The notes: generated from the sequence alone by a model not told the origin. Counted from the stretch's first letter, positions 24,261 through 29,292 are shown. The stretch: 32,403 nt of DNA from a virus (IMGVR_UViG_2617270968_000008:1-32403), one strand, 5' to 3'. A program made the numbers and translations.

Positions 24261-24809
24261 ATGAACGTCAATAAGAAAAAACTGGCCGATATTTTTGGCG
24301 TTGATGTCAGGACCATCACCGCCTGGCAGAGTCAGGGGTTACCACTAGTTTCTGGTGGAGGGAAAGGGACTGAATCAGTTTTTGATACAACTGCTGCCAT
24401 TCAGTGGTATGCGCAGAGGGAAGCTGATATTGAAAACGAAAAACTCCGTAAAGAGATCGAGGATTTGAGGGCTGCCAGCGAATCAGACCTTCAGCCCGGC
24501 ACCATTGATTACGAACGTTACCGACTGACGAAGGCACAGGCCGATGCACAGGAGCTGAAAAATGCTCGTGAGGAAGGCCTTGTCCTCGAGACGGAGTTAT
24601 TTACCTACATCTTTCAGCGAGTGGCACAGAATATATCAGGGATCCTTGTCCGTGTCCCTCAGACACTGCAGCGTAAATACCCTGATATATCACCCGTACA
24701 TCTTGATGCTGTGAAAACTGAAATCGCGAAAGCATCCGATGTGGCTTCTGAAGCCGGTGAGAATGTGCGCAGGTGGATTGATGATTTCAGACGAACTGAG
24801 GGCGGCTAA
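24261..24809 (+). CDS. nu1: Terminase small subunit Nu1
   Basis: Strong resemblance to recalled lambda Nu1 ([36 protein letters not shown]...[57 protein letters not shown]). Confidence 0.9.
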
Positions 24810-25098
24810 TTCTGCAGGAGCGATAGCAACCGGCCTCCTTGCGCTAAAAATTCCTGTCCCTCTGACGACAGTTCAGTGGGCAGATCGACATTATTACCTT
24901 CCGAAAGAGTCATCTTACACCCCGGGGCGGTGGGAAACACTGCCGTTTCAGGTTGCCATCATGAACAGCATGGGGAATGACCGGATCACCGCAGTTAACG
25001 ATAATTCTGGCATTCGGATTTCTGACCGTCGCCCGTTTCAGTCTGGACCGTTCCTTTACCAGTTTCCGTCTCACCCTGGTTTCCCGGGCAACCTGTGA
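24781..25098 (+). pseudogene. Terminase large subunit A, N-terminal fragment (truncated)
   Basis: Start overlaps the Nu1 3' end after AGGTGG; about the first 70 aa match lambda gpA (VQWADRHYYLPKESSYTPGRWETLPFQVAIMNSMGNDRI), then homology stops and the frame ends at 25098. Confidence 0.75.
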
Positions 25099-25221
25099 CG
25101 AAGACTGATTAATCGCCGTTATGGCCACGCGGTTAATGGTCATTGCAGAAGCAGCCGGAATGGCGTTTTTACGAACCCGGCTCAGATTGTCAATCGCCTG
25201 ATCAAGCCCTTTTATCGCCAT
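24910..25221 (-). pseudogene. Tail completion protein Z, N-terminal fragment (inverted orientation)
   Basis: MAIKGLDQAIDNLSRV...VARETRVRRKLVKERSRLKRATVRNPNARI matches the lambda gpZ N-terminus; homology ends near the GDLPVI motif; the C-terminal half is on the other strand at 26138-26482. Confidence 0.75.
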
Positions 25222-25235
25222 AATTCACCCTGCGT

Positions 25236-25589
25236 TTATCGTCGCCGGTTAACTGCGGGTGGTTGCCCACGGTTGAGCCAGAGATAACAGCTGCCCCCGT
25301 CATCCGGAGAAACACGATCCACCCAGAATGTCTCACCATTAATGGTCAGCGTGTCACCACGCCGCACGGCACGAACCGTATCCGTCCGCACAAATAATGA
25401 CGGGCAGCTTCCTTCAATACGGACCCCGCCACCGGCAACCCCCAGCGACTCCGGATCGTCAAAAACCCCCTGAACTTCGCTGCCACACTGTGCCCCCGAG
25501 GTGAACTGCGCACAGAGTCCCATCACTTCAACGATCGTACTGTCTACCCCGGCGAGGGCAGCATCAAAGGCATTCTGAAAATCACGCAT
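25236..25589 (-). CDS. Head-tail joining protein FII
   Basis: 117-aa product closely resembles recalled lambda gpFII (VFDDPE...GVRIEGSCPSLFVRTD...FWVDRVSPDDGGSCYLWL...PPAVNRRR); on the minus strand, so inverted relative to Nu1. Confidence 0.8.
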   Translation of the reverse strand: MRDFQNAFDAALAGVDSTIVEVMGLCAQFTSGAQCGSEVQGVFDDPESLGVAGGGVRIEGSCPSLFVRTDTVRAVRRGDTLTINGETFWVDRVSPDDGGSCYLWLNRGQPPAVNRRR

Positions 25590-25965
25590 ATTCAGCCGTT
25601 CCGTGCTGTATCATGGCCGTTGCCAGTGATGATGGCACCAGAACACGCATACCCCGTAACGCCAGCTCAACGGGACGACCTGTCTCCGGGCAATACCCCA
25701 TTACTTGCAGGCACTTCCGTACCCGGACGGCTTTAACATCATCCGGAGCATCCGTGTTGTTCAACTGCTCACCATCGTCTGTGTGATTTTGATCAGCCCC
25801 ACTCTCATCAGAGTGCATAATGCCCTCCGGGGAAACAGCAAGCTCCTCTTCCCACTCAGACACACGTTGCGCAATATCCGCAGCACTCCCCGACATATCC
25901 GCCTCGCGCCCCAGCAGGCCAGCCAGTTGACGAAGACGATTCAGATTTTCTTCTTTTGTTGCCAT
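25582..25965 (-). CDS. DNA packaging protein FI-like
   Basis: 127 aa from MATKEENLNRLRQ with AGGAGG RBS; acidic protein in the lambda FI position directly upstream of FII on the same strand. Confidence 0.6.
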   Translation of the reverse strand: MATKEENLNRLRQLAGLLGREADMSGSAADIAQRVSEWEEELAVSPEGIMHSDESGADQNHTDDGEQLNNTDAPDDVKAVRVRKCLQVMGYCPETGRPVELALRGMRVLVPSSLATAMIQHGTAEYA

Positions 25966-26202: not shown

Positions 26203-26482
26203 AGCCGGTCAGCATCGTTATCAGCGGGCATTTATCCAGCGATTAAATAATGGGCGCTGGCATGTTATGCAACGTCTTCCCCAGGCCAGATATGAGGAGG
26301 GCAATGACGACAAGGGAAGGAAAAAGCGTAATCGCCTTCCCATTCAGGTGGTGAAAATCCCGATGGCGGCCCCACTGAAACAGGCATTTGATGAGAATGT
26401 TGACCGTATCCGGCGTGAACGCCTGCCTAAAGAACTGGCATACGCGCTGAAACAACAACTGAGGATTGCGATAAAACGATGA
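26138..26482 (+). pseudogene. Tail completion protein Z, C-terminal fragment
   Basis: Frame opens after a stop at 26132-26134; (E)DLPVIKLG...FIQRLNNGRWHVMQR...VVKIPMAAPLKQAF...[25 protein letters not shown] matches the lambda gpZ C-terminal half; the N-terminal half is on the opposite strand. Confidence 0.75.
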
Positions 26483-26874
26483 AAAACACTGACATTCGTG
26501 CCGCAGTGCTGGATGCACTCGAGCAGCATGAACACGGGGCGACGCTGTTTGATGGTCGCCCCGTTGTTTTTGACGAAGAGGATTTTCCTGCGATCGCGGT
26601 TTATCTGACGGATGCAGAGTATACCGGTGAAGAGCTGGATGCAGATACCTGGCGGGCCACGCTGCATATTGAGGTGTTTTTACCGGCACAGGTACCGGAT
26701 TCAGAGCTTGATCAGTGGATGGAAAGCCGGATTTACCCGGCGATGACCGCGATCCCGGCACTGGCAGGACTGATTACCACGATGGTTACGCAGGGCTATG
26801 AGTATCGTCGTGATGACGATATGGCGTTATGGAGTTCTGCAGATCTGACTTATTCCATTACATACGAGATGTGA
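26479..26874 (+). CDS. Tail terminator protein U
   Basis: 131-aa product closely resembles recalled lambda gpU ([10 protein letters not shown]...[14 protein letters not shown]...[19 protein letters not shown]...[17 protein letters not shown]...[12 protein letters not shown]). Confidence 0.85.
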
Positions 26875-26881
26875 GGACGAT

Positions 26882-27044
26882 ATGGCAACACCAAATCCCC
26901 TTGAGCCGGTAAAAGGTGCCGGTACCACTCTGTGGGTTTACAACGGCAAGGGTGATGCTTATGCAAACCCGTTGTCAGACGATGACTGGCAGCGACTGGC
27001 TAAGGTGATGGCGCGCCGTTCCGCTACAGCTTCAGCGCCCTGAA
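26882..27044 (+). pseudogene. Major tail protein V, N-terminal fragment
   Basis: [42 protein letters not shown] matches the lambda gpV N-terminus for about 42 aa, then diverges and stops; ORF below the track cutoff, read from sequence. Confidence 0.7.
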
Positions 27045-29292
27045 GGACCGCCATAATGCCGTTGAGGTGAACTGGATTGACCCGAACAACGGCTGGGAGA
27101 CGGCGACAGAGCTTGTGGAGGATACGCAGGCCATTGCCCGTTACGGTCGTCACGTCACGAAGATGGATGCCTTTGGCTGTACCAACCGGGGGCAGGCGCA
27201 CCGTGCCGGGCTGTGGCTGATTAAAACGGAACTGCTGGAAACGCAGACCGTGGACTTCAGCGTGGGTGCAGAAGGGCTTCGCCATGTACCGGGCGATGTC
27301 ATTGAAATCTGTGATGATGACTATGCCGGTATCAGCACCGGCGGGCGCGTGCTGGCGGTGAACAGCCAGACCCGGACGCTGACGCTCGACCGTGAAATCA
27401 CGCTGCCATCCTCCGGTACCACGCTGATAAGCCTGGTTGACGGAAGTGGTAATCCGGTCAGCGTGGAGGTTCAGTCCGTCACCGACGGACTTAAGGTGAA
27501 AGTAAACCGGGTTCCTGACGGCGTTGCAGAATACAGTGTGTGGGGGCTGAAGTTGCCGACGTTGCGTCAGCGCCTGTTCCGCTGTGTGAGTATCCGTGAG
27601 AACGATGACGGCACGTATGCCATCACTGCCGTGCAGCATGTACCGGAAAAAGAGGCCATCGTGGATAACGGGGCGCACTTTGACGGCGACCAGAGCGGCA
27701 CGGTGAATGGTGTCACGCCGCCAGCGGTGCAGCACCTGACCGCAGAAGTCACCGCAGACAGCGGGGAATATCAGGTGCTGGCGCGCTGGGACACGCCGAA
27801 GGTGGTGAAGGGCGTGAGCTTCCTGCTTCGCCTGACCGTGGCAGCGGACGATGGCAGTGAGCGGCTGGTCAGCACGGCCAGGACGACGGAAACTACATAC
27901 CGCTTCACGCAACTGGCGCTGGGAAATTACAGGCTGACAGTCCGGGCAGTAAATGCGTGGGGACAGCAGGGCGATCCGGCATCGGTATCGTTCCGGATTG
28001 CCGCACCGGCAGCACCGTCGCGGATTGAGCTGACGCCGGGCTATTTTCAGATAACCGCCACGCCGCATCTTGCTGTTTATGACCCGACGGTACAGTTTGA
28101 GTTCTGGTTCTCGGAAAAGCGGATTACCGATATCAGGCAGGTTGAAACCACAGCCCGCTATCTTGGTACGGCGCTGTACTGGATAGCCGCCAGTATCAAT
28201 ATCAAACCGGGCCATGATTATTATTTTTACGTTCGCAGTGTGAACACCGTTGGCAAATCGGCATTCGTGGAGGCTGTCGGTCGGGCGAGCGATGATGCGG
28301 AAGGTTACCTGGATTTTTTCAAAGGAGAAATCGGGAAAACACATCTGGCCCAGGAGTTGTGGACGCAGATTGATAACGGTCAGCTTGCGCCGGACCTGGC
28401 TGAAATCAGGACGTCCATTACGAATGTCAGCAATGAAATCACGCAGACCGTCAATAAAAAACTGGAAGACCAGAGTGCGGCAATCCAGCAGATACAGAAA
28501 GTTCAGGTTGATACAAATAATAACCTGAACAGCATGTGGGCCGTGAAACTGCAGCAGATGAAGGACGGACGCCTTTATATTGCGGGTATCGGAGCCGGTA
28601 TTGAGAATACGCCAGCAGGTATGCAGAGTCAGGTGCTTCTGGCTGCTGACCGGATTGCGATGATTAATCCTGCGAATGGCAACACAAAGCCGATGTTTGT
28701 TGGTCAGGGCGATCAGATATTCATGAACGACGTGTTCCTGAAACGCCTGACGGCTCCGACCATTACCAGCGGCGGTAATCCTCCGGCATTTTCCCTGACA
28801 CCGGACGGGCGGCTGACGGCGAAAAATGCCGATATCAGCGGTAACGTGAATGCGAACTCCGGGACGCTCAACAACGTCACGATTAACGAGAACTGTCGGG
28901 TTCTGGGAAAATTGTCCGCCAACCAGATTGAAGGCGATCTCGTTAAAACAGTGGGCAAAGCTTTCCCCCGGGACTCCCGTGCACCGGAACGGTGGCCATC
29001 AGGGACCATCACCGTCAGGGTTTATGACGATCAGCCGTTTGACCGGCAGATTGTTATTCCGGCGGTGGCATTCAGCGGCGCTAAACATGAGCGGGAGAAT
29101 AACGATATTTATTCGTCATGCCGCCTGATAGTACGGAAAAACGGTGCTGAAATTTATAACCGTACCGCGCTGGATAATACGCTGATTTACAGTGGTGTTA
29201 TTGATATGCCAGCTGGTCGCGGCCACATGACGCTGGAGTTTTCGGTGTCAGCATGGCTGGTGAATAACTGGTACCTTCTGCCCGTAAGGTGA
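27004..29292 (+). pseudogene. Host specificity (central tail fibre) protein J, C-terminal about 760 aa (N-terminal third deleted)
   Basis: Frame opens at 27004 after a stop; [46 protein letters not shown]... matches an internal region of lambda gpJ and continues to a C-terminus; no J N-terminal domain anywhere in the window. Confidence 0.8.

What the first reader, a model, noticed from the sequence alone, without database searches (positions are those of the whole stretch)
24781..29292. Scrambled and deleted structural module: Z is split across strands by an inversion, terminase A is truncated, and V is fused to mid-J
Nu1 is intact, but gpA homology ends after about 70 codons. The next block (about 24990-26135) is inverted and carries Z(N-term), FII, FI and the E C-terminus on the minus strand. 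The remainder of Z resumes on the plus strand at 26138; both Z fragments carry the GD(L)PVI breakpoint motif. V homology ends after about 42 codons and joins directly to an internal point of J (junction about 27005), removing G, T, H, M, L, K, I and the J N-terminus. The simplest history is one inversion between A and Z followed by large deletions. The element cannot make virions, yet it retains regulatory, lysis and cargo genes intact, which is the profile of a domesticated cryptic prophage.
Basis: partly seen in the sequence, partly recalled or inferred. Interest (0 to 1): 0.55.

Follow-up and report, generated by a model that had tools for sequence, protein, structure and literature searches.

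The report
Freshly scrambled lambdoid prophage late operon
The virion-building genes of a lambda-like prophage in one E. coli lineage were wrecked very recently by a combined deletion-inversion and two more deletions, which is ordinary prophage decay, except that one breakpoint lies on a tail-fibre site where many unrelated prophages have broken at the same nucleotide.

Summary
I compared the window with an intact sister prophage at the ompW site of E. coli E7476, which is 100% identical in the flanks. The late operon has lost 6,340 bp (A codon 70 to E codon 301). The adjacent 1,159 bp (E C-terminus, FI, FII, Z codons 1-79) is inverted. A further 7,992 bp is gone (V codon 43 to J codon 380). 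All four junctions carry 2-4 nt of microhomology. No IS element, flanking inverted repeat or invertase site is present. Two NCBI drafts and a Logan contig carry the same arrangement, so it is not a misassembly. None of 5,426 complete E. coli genomes carries it. One break at a GATC in Z serves both inversion junctions, so a single event fits better than inversion followed by deletion. "Domesticated" is unsupported, because the retained genes are near-identical to those of less-decayed relatives. The stf endpoint is a nucleotide-precise hotspot: 21 different left partners elsewhere, 22/119 IMG/VR contigs against 0/323 at three control sites. Its mechanism is unknown.

The parts
24080..24091 (+). 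cosN cohesive-end sequence GGGCGGCGACCT, identical to lambda; cos is retained
   Evidence: exact match at 24080; the following 19 nt are identical to lambda 13-31; window 24080-24565 aligns to lambda 1-495
24261..24809 (+). Nu1 small terminase subunit, intact (182 aa)
   Evidence: PF07471, profile 1-162 of 164, E 1.6e-86; 0 nt differences from AST198 Nu1
24781..24987 (+). Terminase large subunit A, codons 1-69 of 642 only. The frame runs on into reversed Z sequence and stops at 25098, giving a 105-aa chimeric ORF.
   Evidence: the chimeric ORF is called in a Logan assembly
24984..24987 (.). Junction 1, joining A to inverted Z. The shared 4 nt are GATC (A site GGATCC, Z site TGATCT).
   Evidence: three-way alignment of the junction
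24984..25221 (-). Z (tail protein) codons 1-79, inverted. It carries an R-to-C substitution at 24993, 9 nt from the junction.
   Evidence: (PF06763, profile 1-77 of 190)
25236..25589 (-). FII head-tail joining protein, full length, inverted
   Evidence: PF05354, profile 3-96 of 99
25582..25965 (-). FI DNA-packaging protein, full length (127 codons), inverted; one substitution at 25801
   Evidence: PF14000, profile 1-129 of 131
26017..26142 (-). Major capsid protein E, codons 302-342 only, inverted
   Evidence: PF03864, profile 292-329 of 329
26141..26142 (.). Junction 2, joining inverted E to Z. The shared 2 nt are GA, and the Z GATC (26141-26144) is present again here.
26141..26482 (+). Z codons 79-191. 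The frame is open from 26135, and the first start codons are GTG at 26150 and ATG at 26171.
   Evidence: (PF06763, profile 107-190 of 190)
26479..26874 (+). U tail terminator, intact
   Evidence: PF06141, profile 1-130 of 130
26882..27008 (+). V major tail protein, codons 1-42 of 250. The frame reads 11 out-of-frame codons of J and stops at 27043.
27006..27008 (.). Junction 3, joining V to J. The shared 3 nt are TGA. It deletes 7,992 bp (rest of V, G, T, H, M, L, K, I, a small ORF, and J codons 1-380).
27006..29273 (+). J tail-tip protein, codons 381-1135 of 1159. It is callable as a 741-aa ORF, 27067-29292.
   Evidence: (Pfam Phage-tail_3, Ig_J, Phage_Tail_Tip, Ig_GpJ_C)
29270..29273 (.). Junction 4, joining J to stf. 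The shared 4 nt are GGTA, inside the stf palindrome GGTACC. It deletes 2,783 bp (last 24 J codons, lom, stf codons 1-631). The stf side is a recurrent hotspot.
   Evidence: hotspot
29270..30485 (+). Side tail fibre Stf, codons 632-1035, callable as a 398-aa ORF from GTG at 29289
30485..31069 (+). Tail fibre assembly protein Tfa, intact

Best explanation
The interval is the late operon of a lambdoid prophage that was complete until very recently. Short-microhomology (illegitimate) recombination has crippled it in three events. None of them involves a site-specific recombinase or an IS element.

Event 1 has three breakpoints and two junctions. The DNA broke at a GATC in A and at a GATC in Z. The released A-to-Z fragment lost 6.3 kb from its A end. 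The surviving 1.16 kb (E', FI, FII, 'Z) was rejoined upside down. Its GATC end joined the GATC end of A (junction 1). Its eroded E end joined the other Z end through 2 nt (junction 2). A replicative version, with two microhomology-primed template switches starting from a break at the Z GATC, gives the same product.

Events 2 and 3 are plain deletions, V to J with TGA shared and J to stf with GGTA shared.

The element keeps cos, Nu1, FI, FII, U, Tfa and a complete early, regulatory and lysis region. It cannot make capsids or tails. It probably cannot excise either, because its two ends come from different prophages.

Shown: the map, the junction sequences, the recency, the restriction to one lineage, and the absence of IS elements, inverted repeats and invertase sites. 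Inferred: that event 1 was a single event, that the breaks were GATC-specific, and the loss of excision.
For: Map. The window is colinear with the intact E7476 ompW prophage, with 0 mismatches in 9,915 nt of flanks. The exceptions are the three missing segments and the inverted block. The junctions were read base by base.

Microhomology. The four junctions share 4, 2, 3 and 4 nt. The joint chance expectation is about 2e-6.

Single event. Inverted Z ends at L008 11144 and direct Z starts at 11141, so one Z break serves both junctions and GATC sits at both. Any two-step route needs a second breakpoint to land within 4 nt of the first.

GATC. The A breakpoint is also a GATC (GGATCC), so junction 1 is what two cohesive GATC ends would give. 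Only about 2.8% of positions in A-to-Z lie in a GATC.

No recombinase signature. No inverted repeats flank the block. There is no pix/gix-like site in the window. No transposase ORF is present.

Real and lineage-specific. The sequence is identical in GCA_000700205.1, in GCA_000700185.1 and in a Logan contig of SRR1186493 that spans junctions 1-3. It is absent from 5,426 complete E. coli genomes, from IMG/VR and from GTDB representatives. The Z and J breakpoints are intact in 69/69 and 140/140 IMG/VR contigs.

Precedent. E. coli has an end-joining pathway (A-EJ) that relies strongly on 2-12 bp microhomology (PMC11297215).

Mismatched ends. The int-xis module is Qin-type with rspB-ynfF on its far side. 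The right flank is 'ompW-yciEFG-trp.
Against: The mechanism is inferred from end products only. Nothing observes the breaks.

The GATC coincidence is post hoc (about p 0.006-0.03). The E breakpoint is not at a GATC. No GATC-cutting activity was identified. E. coli is normally Dam-methylated, and MutH makes double-strand cuts only at unmethylated sites (my own knowledge).

End joining in E. coli usually involves RecBCD resection, yet both Z ends are preserved to the nucleotide.

No intermediate genome (inversion without deletion, or the reverse) was found, so the order and number of events cannot be read from relatives.

The two substitutions in the inverted block are only marginally above the prophage-wide rate (p 0.054).
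Confidence: 0.85

Rival explanations
1. A simple reciprocal inversion between A and Z came first, and independent later deletions removed W to E and the other segments.
For: Inversions and deletions are both common in decaying prophages (PMC6379469). The A and Z sites share GATC plus some imperfect extra similarity (89 of 2000 shuffles score as well), which could mediate a reciprocal inversion.
Against: After an A-Z inversion, the later deletion would have to end within the 4-nt GATC of the right-hand inversion junction. The chance is about 1 in 1000 or less for a random endpoint. No genome with the intermediate was found among 5,426 complete genomes or in IMG/VR.
Confidence: 0.12
2. The same product arose by replication rather than by cutting and religation. 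A fork or break at the Z GATC produced a 3' end that primed on the opposite strand at E (2 nt). It copied 1.16 kb to the broken end, then switched again to A (4 nt). This is MMBIR/FoSTeS-type template switching.
For: Two junctions with 2 and 4 nt of microhomology and an inverted middle segment are the classic template-switch signature. Run-off at the break explains why the inverted copy ends exactly at the Z breakpoint. The substitution at 24993, 9 nt from junction 1, turns a 10/11 inverted repeat with 25248-25258 into a perfect 11/11 (I7). That is what a templated, error-prone synthesis tract could leave.
Against: The sequence cannot distinguish this from breakage and rejoining. The templated-mutation reading is post hoc (rough chance 1-3%). 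The excess of substitutions in the block is not significant (p 0.054).
Confidence: 0.35
3. The arrangement is an assembly artefact or a programmed invertible segment.
For: Related phages do carry DNA invertases next to tfa.
Against: Three separate assemblies, including a Logan contig that crosses junctions 1-3, are 100% identical to the window. The junctions share only 2-4 nt, too little to mislead an assembler. No inverted repeats lie at the block ends. There is no pix/gix-like site and no invertase gene in the window. Flipping the block back would not restore any gene, because 6.3 kb is missing.
Confidence: 0.02
4. The element is a domesticated cryptic prophage. Its regulatory, lysis and cargo genes are kept by selection while useless structural genes decay.
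For: All 35 early, lysis, cargo and packaging (Nu1) genes checked are uninterrupted. The cargo includes IraM, a SASA esterase, hokD, dicB and a candidate defence pair. Purifying selection on defective prophages is documented in general (and its citations).
Against: The same genes are equally intact and near-identical in AST198 (12 differences in 17 kb outside the exonuclease gene). AST198 still has all its head genes. The late flanks are 100% identical to E7476, which has all structural genes. No time has passed in which selection could be detected. The junctions are confined to one lineage.
Confidence: 0.1

Closest known systems
Intact or near-intact sister prophages at the ompW site: E. coli E7476 (NZ_CP035817.1) and AST198 (NZ_AP043606.1)
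   Same: Same phage. The late-region flanks are 100% identical to E7476, and the early region is 99.7-99.9% identical to AST198 and E7476. The right-hand attachment flank is the same ('ompW-yciE-trp).
   Different: E7476 keeps the whole Nu1-tfa module but has an IS1-associated loss in its Q region. AST198 keeps all head genes but has its own larger V-J deletion (window 26975 joined to 27579). The window alone has the A-E deletion with inversion, the V-J junction at 27006 and the J-stf junction. It also has a Qin-type int-xis.
E. coli K-12 cryptic lambdoid prophages Qin, DLP12 and Rac
   Same: These are lambdoid prophages that keep a Nu1 homologue (nohA/nohD), stf/tfa remnants and lysis and regulatory genes, but lack most head and tail genes. 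The tfa-methyltransferase-tfa' tail resembles that of DLP12 (my own knowledge). The int-xis of the window is the Qin type.
   Different: The K-12 remnants are old, diverged and widespread. This one differs from an intact phage only by the rearrangements. The K-12 Qin noh-stf junction is at a different stf position from the hotspot.
Bacteriophage lambda structural module (NC_001416)
   Same: Gene order and homology run Nu1-A-...-E-FI-FII-Z-U-V-...-J-lom-stf-tfa. cosN is identical. J is 93.6% identical at the DNA level over 1.36 kb.
   Different: Most head and tail genes are only 65-77% identical at the DNA level. The window has 17.1 kb missing and 1.16 kb inverted.
Microhomology-mediated (alternative) end joining and illegitimate recombination in E. 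coli
   Same: The junctions carry 2-4 nt of microhomology and lack long homology. That matches the 2-12 bp reported for A-EJ junctions (PMC11297215).
   Different: A-EJ normally follows resection, whereas here both Z ends are kept intact. No experimental link has been made.
Hin/Gin/Cin/Pin invertible tail-fibre segments (for example the e14 P segment)
   Same: Both involve an inverted DNA block in a phage morphogenesis region. Relatives carry invertase genes next to tfa.
   Different: e14 has 21-nt inverted pix sites. The window has no such sites, no flanking inverted repeats and no invertase. The inverted block lies in head and tail-joining genes, not in the fibre gene.
Prophage-mediated chromosomal inversions across the replication terminus (for example in O157)
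   Same: The hybrid prophage joins the Qin-locus flank (rspB-ynfF) to the ompW-locus flank (yciE-trp). That is what recombination between two inversely oriented prophages would produce (PMC6379469 citing Iguchi 2006).
   Different: That event runs on kilobase homology (the shared exonuclease gene). It is mechanistically unrelated to the microhomology junctions of the finding.

Membership tests
Lambda-like virion module (functional) | Complete terminase (Nu1 plus full-length A) with cos | tested here: not met
   cos and Nu1 are intact, but A keeps 69 of 642 codons
Lambda-like virion module (functional) | Head genes W, B (portal), C/Nu3, D and E present | tested here: not met
   W, B, C and D are absent. 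E keeps codons 302-342 only, and these are inverted
Lambda-like virion module (functional) | Tail genes Z, U, V, G, T, H, M, L, K, I and J present and colinear | tested here: not met
   Z is split across strands. V keeps 42 codons. G through I are absent. J lacks codons 1-380 and 1136-1159. Only U is intact
Lambda-like virion module (by descent) | Sequence homology and synteny with lambdoid late genes | tested here: met
   BLASTN to lambda and to E7476. Pfam Phage_Nu1, Minor_tail_Z, Phage_attach, Packaging_FI, Phage_cap_E and Phage_tail_U, and the J domains
Site-specific invertible segment (Hin/Gin/Cin/Pin type) | Inverted recombination sites of about 26 bp at both ends of the segment | tested here: not met
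   No inverted repeats at 24984-8 or 26141-2. No AAACCnnGGTTT-type site in the window. e14 served as a positive control, and its pix sites were found
Site-specific invertible segment (Hin/Gin/Cin/Pin type) | Adjacent serine invertase gene; both orientations seen in populations | tested here: not met
   No invertase in the window. All three assemblies have the same orientation. Read-level heterogeneity is not testable here.
IS- or transposon-mediated adjacent deletion/inversion | An IS copy at a junction, with a target-site duplication typical of the element | tested here: not met
   No transposase ORF or foreign DNA at any junction. Every base maps to the E7476 prophage
Domesticated cryptic prophage | Remnant conserved by vertical descent across a clade, with purifying selection on the retained genes | tested here: not met
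   The junctions are absent from 5,426 complete genomes and found only in one set of near-identical assemblies. The retained genes are identical or near-identical to those of less-decayed copies, so selection cannot be measured
Domesticated cryptic prophage | Demonstrated host benefit of the retained genes | not testable with these tools
   This needs deletion and fitness experiments
Microhomology-mediated illegitimate recombination product | Junctions with a few nt of shared sequence, no long homology and no inserted DNA | tested here: met
   GATC, GA, TGA and GGTA at the four junctions, with no filler DNA. Flank alignments are no better than shuffles except weakly at junction 1

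The most novel reading that the evidence does not exclude
The J-stf junction is not a random deletion endpoint. The stf sequence GGG-TA-CCTTCTGCCCGTAAGG, at the start of the conserved receptor-binding half of lambdoid side tail fibre genes, may be the target of an unidentified site-specific nuclease or recombinase. 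That activity could be host-, prophage- or defence-encoded. It would repeatedly break lambdoid prophages at one nucleotide, and repair by 2-7 nt of microhomology would then delete everything upstream. That would make it a dedicated route by which E. coli prophages lose their virion genes. The GATC-to-GATC join of the A-Z event would be a second instance of nuclease-initiated prophage wrecking.
Probability: 0.35. Interest if true: 0.65.

Novelty: new member of a known kind. Interest (0 to 1): 0.32.

Why it matters
The finding itself is a well-resolved snapshot of prophage decay in progress. An intact sister copy exists (E7476), so every breakpoint can be read to the base. The record shows that crippling can happen through a few large microhomology-mediated events before any point-mutation decay. 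It also shows that one of those events can be a compound deletion-inversion. Annotators should note that the element still carries cos, Nu1, a full lysis cassette and toxin and defence cargo, even though it cannot produce particles. The stf hotspot is more interesting. If it reflects a site-specific activity, it would explain why so many E. coli prophage remnants end in the same stf-C/tfa stub. It would also give a testable handle on how lysogens disarm prophages.

Tried and rejected
(1) Invertible switch. I searched for inverted repeats at the block ends and for a Hin-family site in the window. Both were negative, while the e14 pix positive control was found.

(2) IS-mediated rearrangement. 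No IS or foreign DNA lies at any junction.

(3) Extended homology at the junctions. Only junction 1 is weakly above shuffles (89 of 2000). The others sit at chance.

(4) Substitutions in the inverted block as a repair scar. Two changes in 1,159 nt compare with 0 in 9,915 nt of late flanks, but with 7 in 21.8 kb prophage-wide. That gives p 0.054, which is not significant.

(5) Source strain identity. Paper searches for JNMA/JNMB, the GCA accessions and SRR1186493 found nothing.

(6) Explanations tested for the stf hotspot:
- A generic GGTACC/GTAC cutter is rejected. Another GGTACC in J shows 0 of 114 junctions, and the other GGTACC sites are not at the window's other breakpoints.
- A Pin-type invertase has weak support. 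There is an association with a downstream pinQ-like gene (5/7 against 10/40, p 0.026). However, there is no partner site, no dyad symmetry and no inverted repeat.
- A transposon end is rejected, because there is no inverted copy of the end.
- A hairpin is rejected. DNA folding z-scores are 0.6 and -1.2.
- K-12 Qin nohA-stfQ is not the same junction.
- A literature search for the site sequence found only unrelated primers.

(7) Recurrence of the window's other breakpoints. The Z and J-20001 breakpoints are not recurrent (0/69 and 0/140).

Full report
**What is there.** ORF listing and similarity searches show that the window is essentially one lambdoid prophage. The decisive comparison uses two annotated relatives found by megablast in complete E. 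coli genomes. AST198 carries the same phage at ompW with all head genes present. E7476 carries it with a complete late operon: Nu1, A, W, B, C, D, E, FI, FII, Z, U, V, G, T, H, M, L, K, I, J, lom, stf, tfa.

Against E7476 (locus L008) the window breaks into five colinear blocks:

| Window | L008 | Identity |
|---|---|---|
| 21343-24987 | 1-3645 | 100% |
| 24984-26142 | 11144 down to 9986 (inverted) | 2 mismatches |
| 26141-27008 | 11141-12008 | 100% |
| 27006-29273 | 20001-22268 | 100% |
| 29270-32403 | 25052-28185 | 100% |

BLASTN against lambda gives the same topology at lower identity.

**Check of the observation.**
- Nu1 is intact.
- A stops after 69 codons.
- The minus strand of 24984-26142 carries Z codons 1-79, FII, FI and E codons 302-342.
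- Z codons 79-191 resume on the plus strand at 26141.
- U is intact.
- V stops after 42 codons and is joined at 27006-27008 to J codon 381.

These points rest, and Pfam domain coordinates agree. They are fragments of genes that are full-length, and 100% identical at the DNA level, in E7476. They are not diverged complete genes.

Three details need correction. First, the V-J join is out of frame. Second, the shared 'GD(L)PVI' is not a duplicated segment. Only the four bases GATC are common to both Z fragments, and the 'PVI' after 'GD' in the minus-strand fragment is translated from reverse-complemented A. Third, the J ORF ends at 29292 because of a third deletion, with its junction at 29270-29273. 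That deletion removes the last 24 J codons, lom and stf codons 1-631. In total, 17,115 bp of the E7476 module is missing and 1,159 bp is inverted.

**Is it real?** The chimeric products encoded across the junctions were looked up by exact sequence. The A' fusion ORF occurs on a 3.6-kb Logan contig of SRR1186493 that spans junctions 1, 2 and 3. The V' stub, the 741-aa J' and the 398-aa 'Stf occur on contigs of GCA_000700205.1 and GCA_000700185.1. All of these are 100% identical to the window over the shared length. The junctions share only 2-4 nt, so they could not mislead an assembler.

The arrangement is also rare. No complete E. coli genome out of 5,426 holds junctions 1-2, 3 or 4. The junction-1 sequence is absent from IMG/VR and from GTDB species representatives. 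The rearrangements are therefore genuine and confined to one lineage.

**Anatomy of the junctions**.

| Junction | Window sequence | Left parent | Right parent | Shared |
|---|---|---|---|---|
| 1 | ...GACCG GATC ACCGCAG... | A: ...GACCGGATCCGCAC... | reversed Z: ...GATCACCGCGG... | GATC |
| 2 | ...GGGAA GA TCTCCC... | reversed E: ...GGGAAGAGGCC... | Z: ...GGTGATCTCCC... | GA |
| 3 | not tabulated | V | J | TGA |
| 4 | not tabulated | J | stf | GGTA |

The chance of overlaps this long at all four junctions is about 2e-6. Longer alignments of the parental flanks are no better than shuffled controls. The only exception is a weak signal at junction 1. There is no IS element, no filler DNA, no inverted repeat at the block ends and no Hin-family site. 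The same repeat search does find the e14 pix sites.

**How it most likely arose.** The key fact is that inverted Z ends at L008 11144 and direct Z begins at 11141. One break in Z, at a GATC, supplies both junctions, and that GATC is present at each. Any two-step history requires the second event to end within these four bases.

A single three-breakpoint event needs no such coincidence. I favour the following sequence.
1. Double-strand cuts occur at the GATC in A (GGATCC) and the GATC in Z.
2. Exonuclease removes 6.3 kb from the A end of the released fragment.
3. The remaining 1.16 kb is religated in reverse.
4. Its GATC end joins the GATC end of A.
5. Its eroded end joins the Z end through GA.

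GATC covers only about 2.8% of positions in this stretch.

A replicative variant is equally compatible. In it, a 3' end at the Z break primes in E on the opposite strand, runs off at the break, and then switches to A. A hint in its favour is the substitution at 24993, 9 nt from junction 1. It converts an imperfect 11-nt inverted repeat with 25248-25258 into a perfect one. The excess of substitutions in the block is not significant (p 0.054). E. coli is known to join ends through 2-12 bp of microhomology without Ku or LigD (PMC11297215). Which enzyme made the breaks is unknown. MutH acting on unmethylated GATC, or a restriction enzyme, are speculations from general knowledge.

**Consequences for the element.** cosN is identical to that of lambda. 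Nu1, FI, FII, U and Tfa are whole. There is no large terminase, portal, protease, scaffold, decoration protein, capsid, tube, tape measure or tip complex, so no virions can be made (inference from lambda biology).

All 35 early, regulatory, lysis, cargo and packaging genes mapped from the AST198 annotation are uninterrupted in the window. They include racR, the ydaS/T-like genes, dicB, hokD, Q, holin, lysozyme, Rz, IraM and the SASA esterase. The data do not support that reading. Outside the exonuclease gene, the window differs from AST198 at only 12 positions in 17 kb. The late flanks are identical to a copy with a complete virion module. The genes are intact simply because almost no time has passed.

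**The prophage is a hybrid.** Window 1-2250 (int, xis and the exonuclease 3' end) is 99.7-99.8% identical to the integrase end of Qin-site prophages. From 1651 onward the window matches the ompW-site phage. In contig JNMA01000026 the integrase is followed by rspB, rspA, ynfA-ynfF, which is the Qin locus. The other end of the prophage abuts 'ompW, yciE, yciF, yciG and trpA. The gene orientations fit an inversion of the roughly 0.3-Mb terminus-proximal segment. It would have arisen by homologous recombination between two inversely oriented prophages within their shared exonuclease gene, a known kind of event (PMC6379469). The two attachment ends now belong to different phages, so excision is probably lost as well (inference).

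**An unexpected hotspot.** The exact 398-aa 'Stf also turned up in a metagenome contig where it directly follows an Rz gene of a different prophage. In E. coli PapRG-04-4 the same stf position is joined to J codon ~212. I then scanned IMG/VR for the 29-mer immediately to the right of junction 4.

Of the first 119 contigs returned, 97 have intact stf upstream. The other 22, with 18 distinct left flanks, are joined to unrelated DNA at the same nucleotide. Adding the window and the two cases above gives 21 different left partners. Twenty of them end in TA, with G enriched at positions -3 and -4. That mirrors the intact sequence CGGGTA|CCTTC, so the joint lies in the palindrome GGTACC and uses 2-7 nt of microhomology.

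No other deletion endpoints occur in the 15-96 nt upstream. The partners that could be mapped lie upstream and in direct orientation. They are Nu1, A, H, L/K, three positions in J, lom, the stf N-part, Rz and the dicB region. The reciprocal scan for the left side of the site found 108 of 109 contigs intact. The one exception looks like an inversion junction.

Three control sites treated in the same way gave no junctions. They were another GGTACC in J (0/114), the window's own J breakpoint (0/140) and its Z breakpoint (0/69). The contrast is 22/119 against 0/323, Fisher p = 6e-14.

I could not explain the hotspot.
- There is no second copy or inverted copy of the site.
- There is no Hin-type motif or dyad symmetry.
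- There is no stable hairpin.
- There is no transposon end.
- There is only a weak association with a downstream pinQ-like recombinase gene (5/7 against 10/40, p 0.026), and no partner inverted repeat.
- The site sequence does not appear in the searchable literature.

A site-specific break with short 3' or 5' overhangs inside GGTACC, followed by microhomology joining, fits the pattern. This remains a hypothesis.

**Verdict.** The finding is a correct and careful description of a defective lambdoid prophage. The phenomenon, prophage decay by deletion and inversion, is well known. What is specific here is the base-level reconstruction against an intact sister copy, and the evidence that the A-Z scramble was one compound event anchored at GATC sites. 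The 'domesticated' label should be dropped. The part that deserves follow-up is the stf hotspot at the right edge of the interval.

Noticed in passing
window 29270-29302 (stf codon ~632; E7476 locus L008 25052-25084): This is a nucleotide-precise recurrent deletion endpoint in the side tail fibre gene. Twenty-one different upstream partners are joined at GGG-TA|CCTTCTGCCCG in unrelated prophage remnants. In IMG/VR, 22 of 119 contigs show it, against 0 of 323 at three control sites. Microhomology is 2-7 nt and the mechanism is unknown.
   Followed up: yes
window 1-2250; locus L400 (JNMA01000026) 12545-22472; L004 15649-22226: The prophage is a hybrid. Its int-xis is Qin-type and is flanked by rspB-ynfF, while the rest is the ompW-site phage flanked by 'ompW-yciEFG-trp. 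The crossover lies in the shared exonuclease gene. This implies a terminus-spanning chromosomal inversion between two prophages, and mismatched attL and attR.
   Followed up: partly
window 24993 and 25801: These are the only two substitutions relative to E7476 and AST198 in the whole late region, and both lie in the inverted block. Both are G-to-A on the plus strand. The one at 24993 (Z R76C) makes a perfect 11-nt inverted repeat with 25248-25258, so it may be a templated change. Neither the count nor the repeat is statistically compelling.
   Followed up: partly
window 22227-23856: Two overlapping convergent genes sit between the lysis cassette and cos. One is annotated 'sce7726 family' (Pfam Phage_P4_cII) and the other 'beta family protein' (PF14350). 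They match PADLOC models cII, beta and PD-Lambda-2_C, so they may be anti-phage defence cargo.
   Followed up: partly
L002 12742-14596 (E. coli AST198) compared with window 26975-27579: AST198 carries an independent or secondary V-J deletion in the same phage. It removes 33 bp more of V and 573 bp more of J than the window's deletion, with a 7-nt overlap, while its head genes remain intact. PapRG-04-4 (L020) shows a parallel pattern, Nu1, then A', then 'J', then 'stf, in a different prophage.
   Followed up: partly
window 30485-32168: The order is tfa, an opposite-strand class I SAM methyltransferase (31124-31792), then a second partial tfa (31849-32118). A 227-nt direct repeat at 88.5% identity links 30893-31118 and 31942-32168. 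The layout recalls tfaD-ybcY-tfaX of DLP12 and is shared by E7476, AST198 and phage PhiR30_1.
   Followed up: no
L009 4005-5487 (E7476) compared with window 11480-19312: The otherwise 'intact' E7476 copy has an IS1A element and lacks about 7.8 kb of the Q, methyltransferase, tRNA and IraM region that the window and AST198 retain. Each lineage has therefore decayed in a different place.
   Followed up: no
L148 (IMG/VR contig) 40-7887: This is the single case where the left half of the stf hotspot is retained (…GGTCGGGTA|AGTGCCG…). The joined DNA carries a lysozyme gene in reverse orientation 6.9 kb away, so it looks like an inversion junction at the same site.
   Followed up: partly
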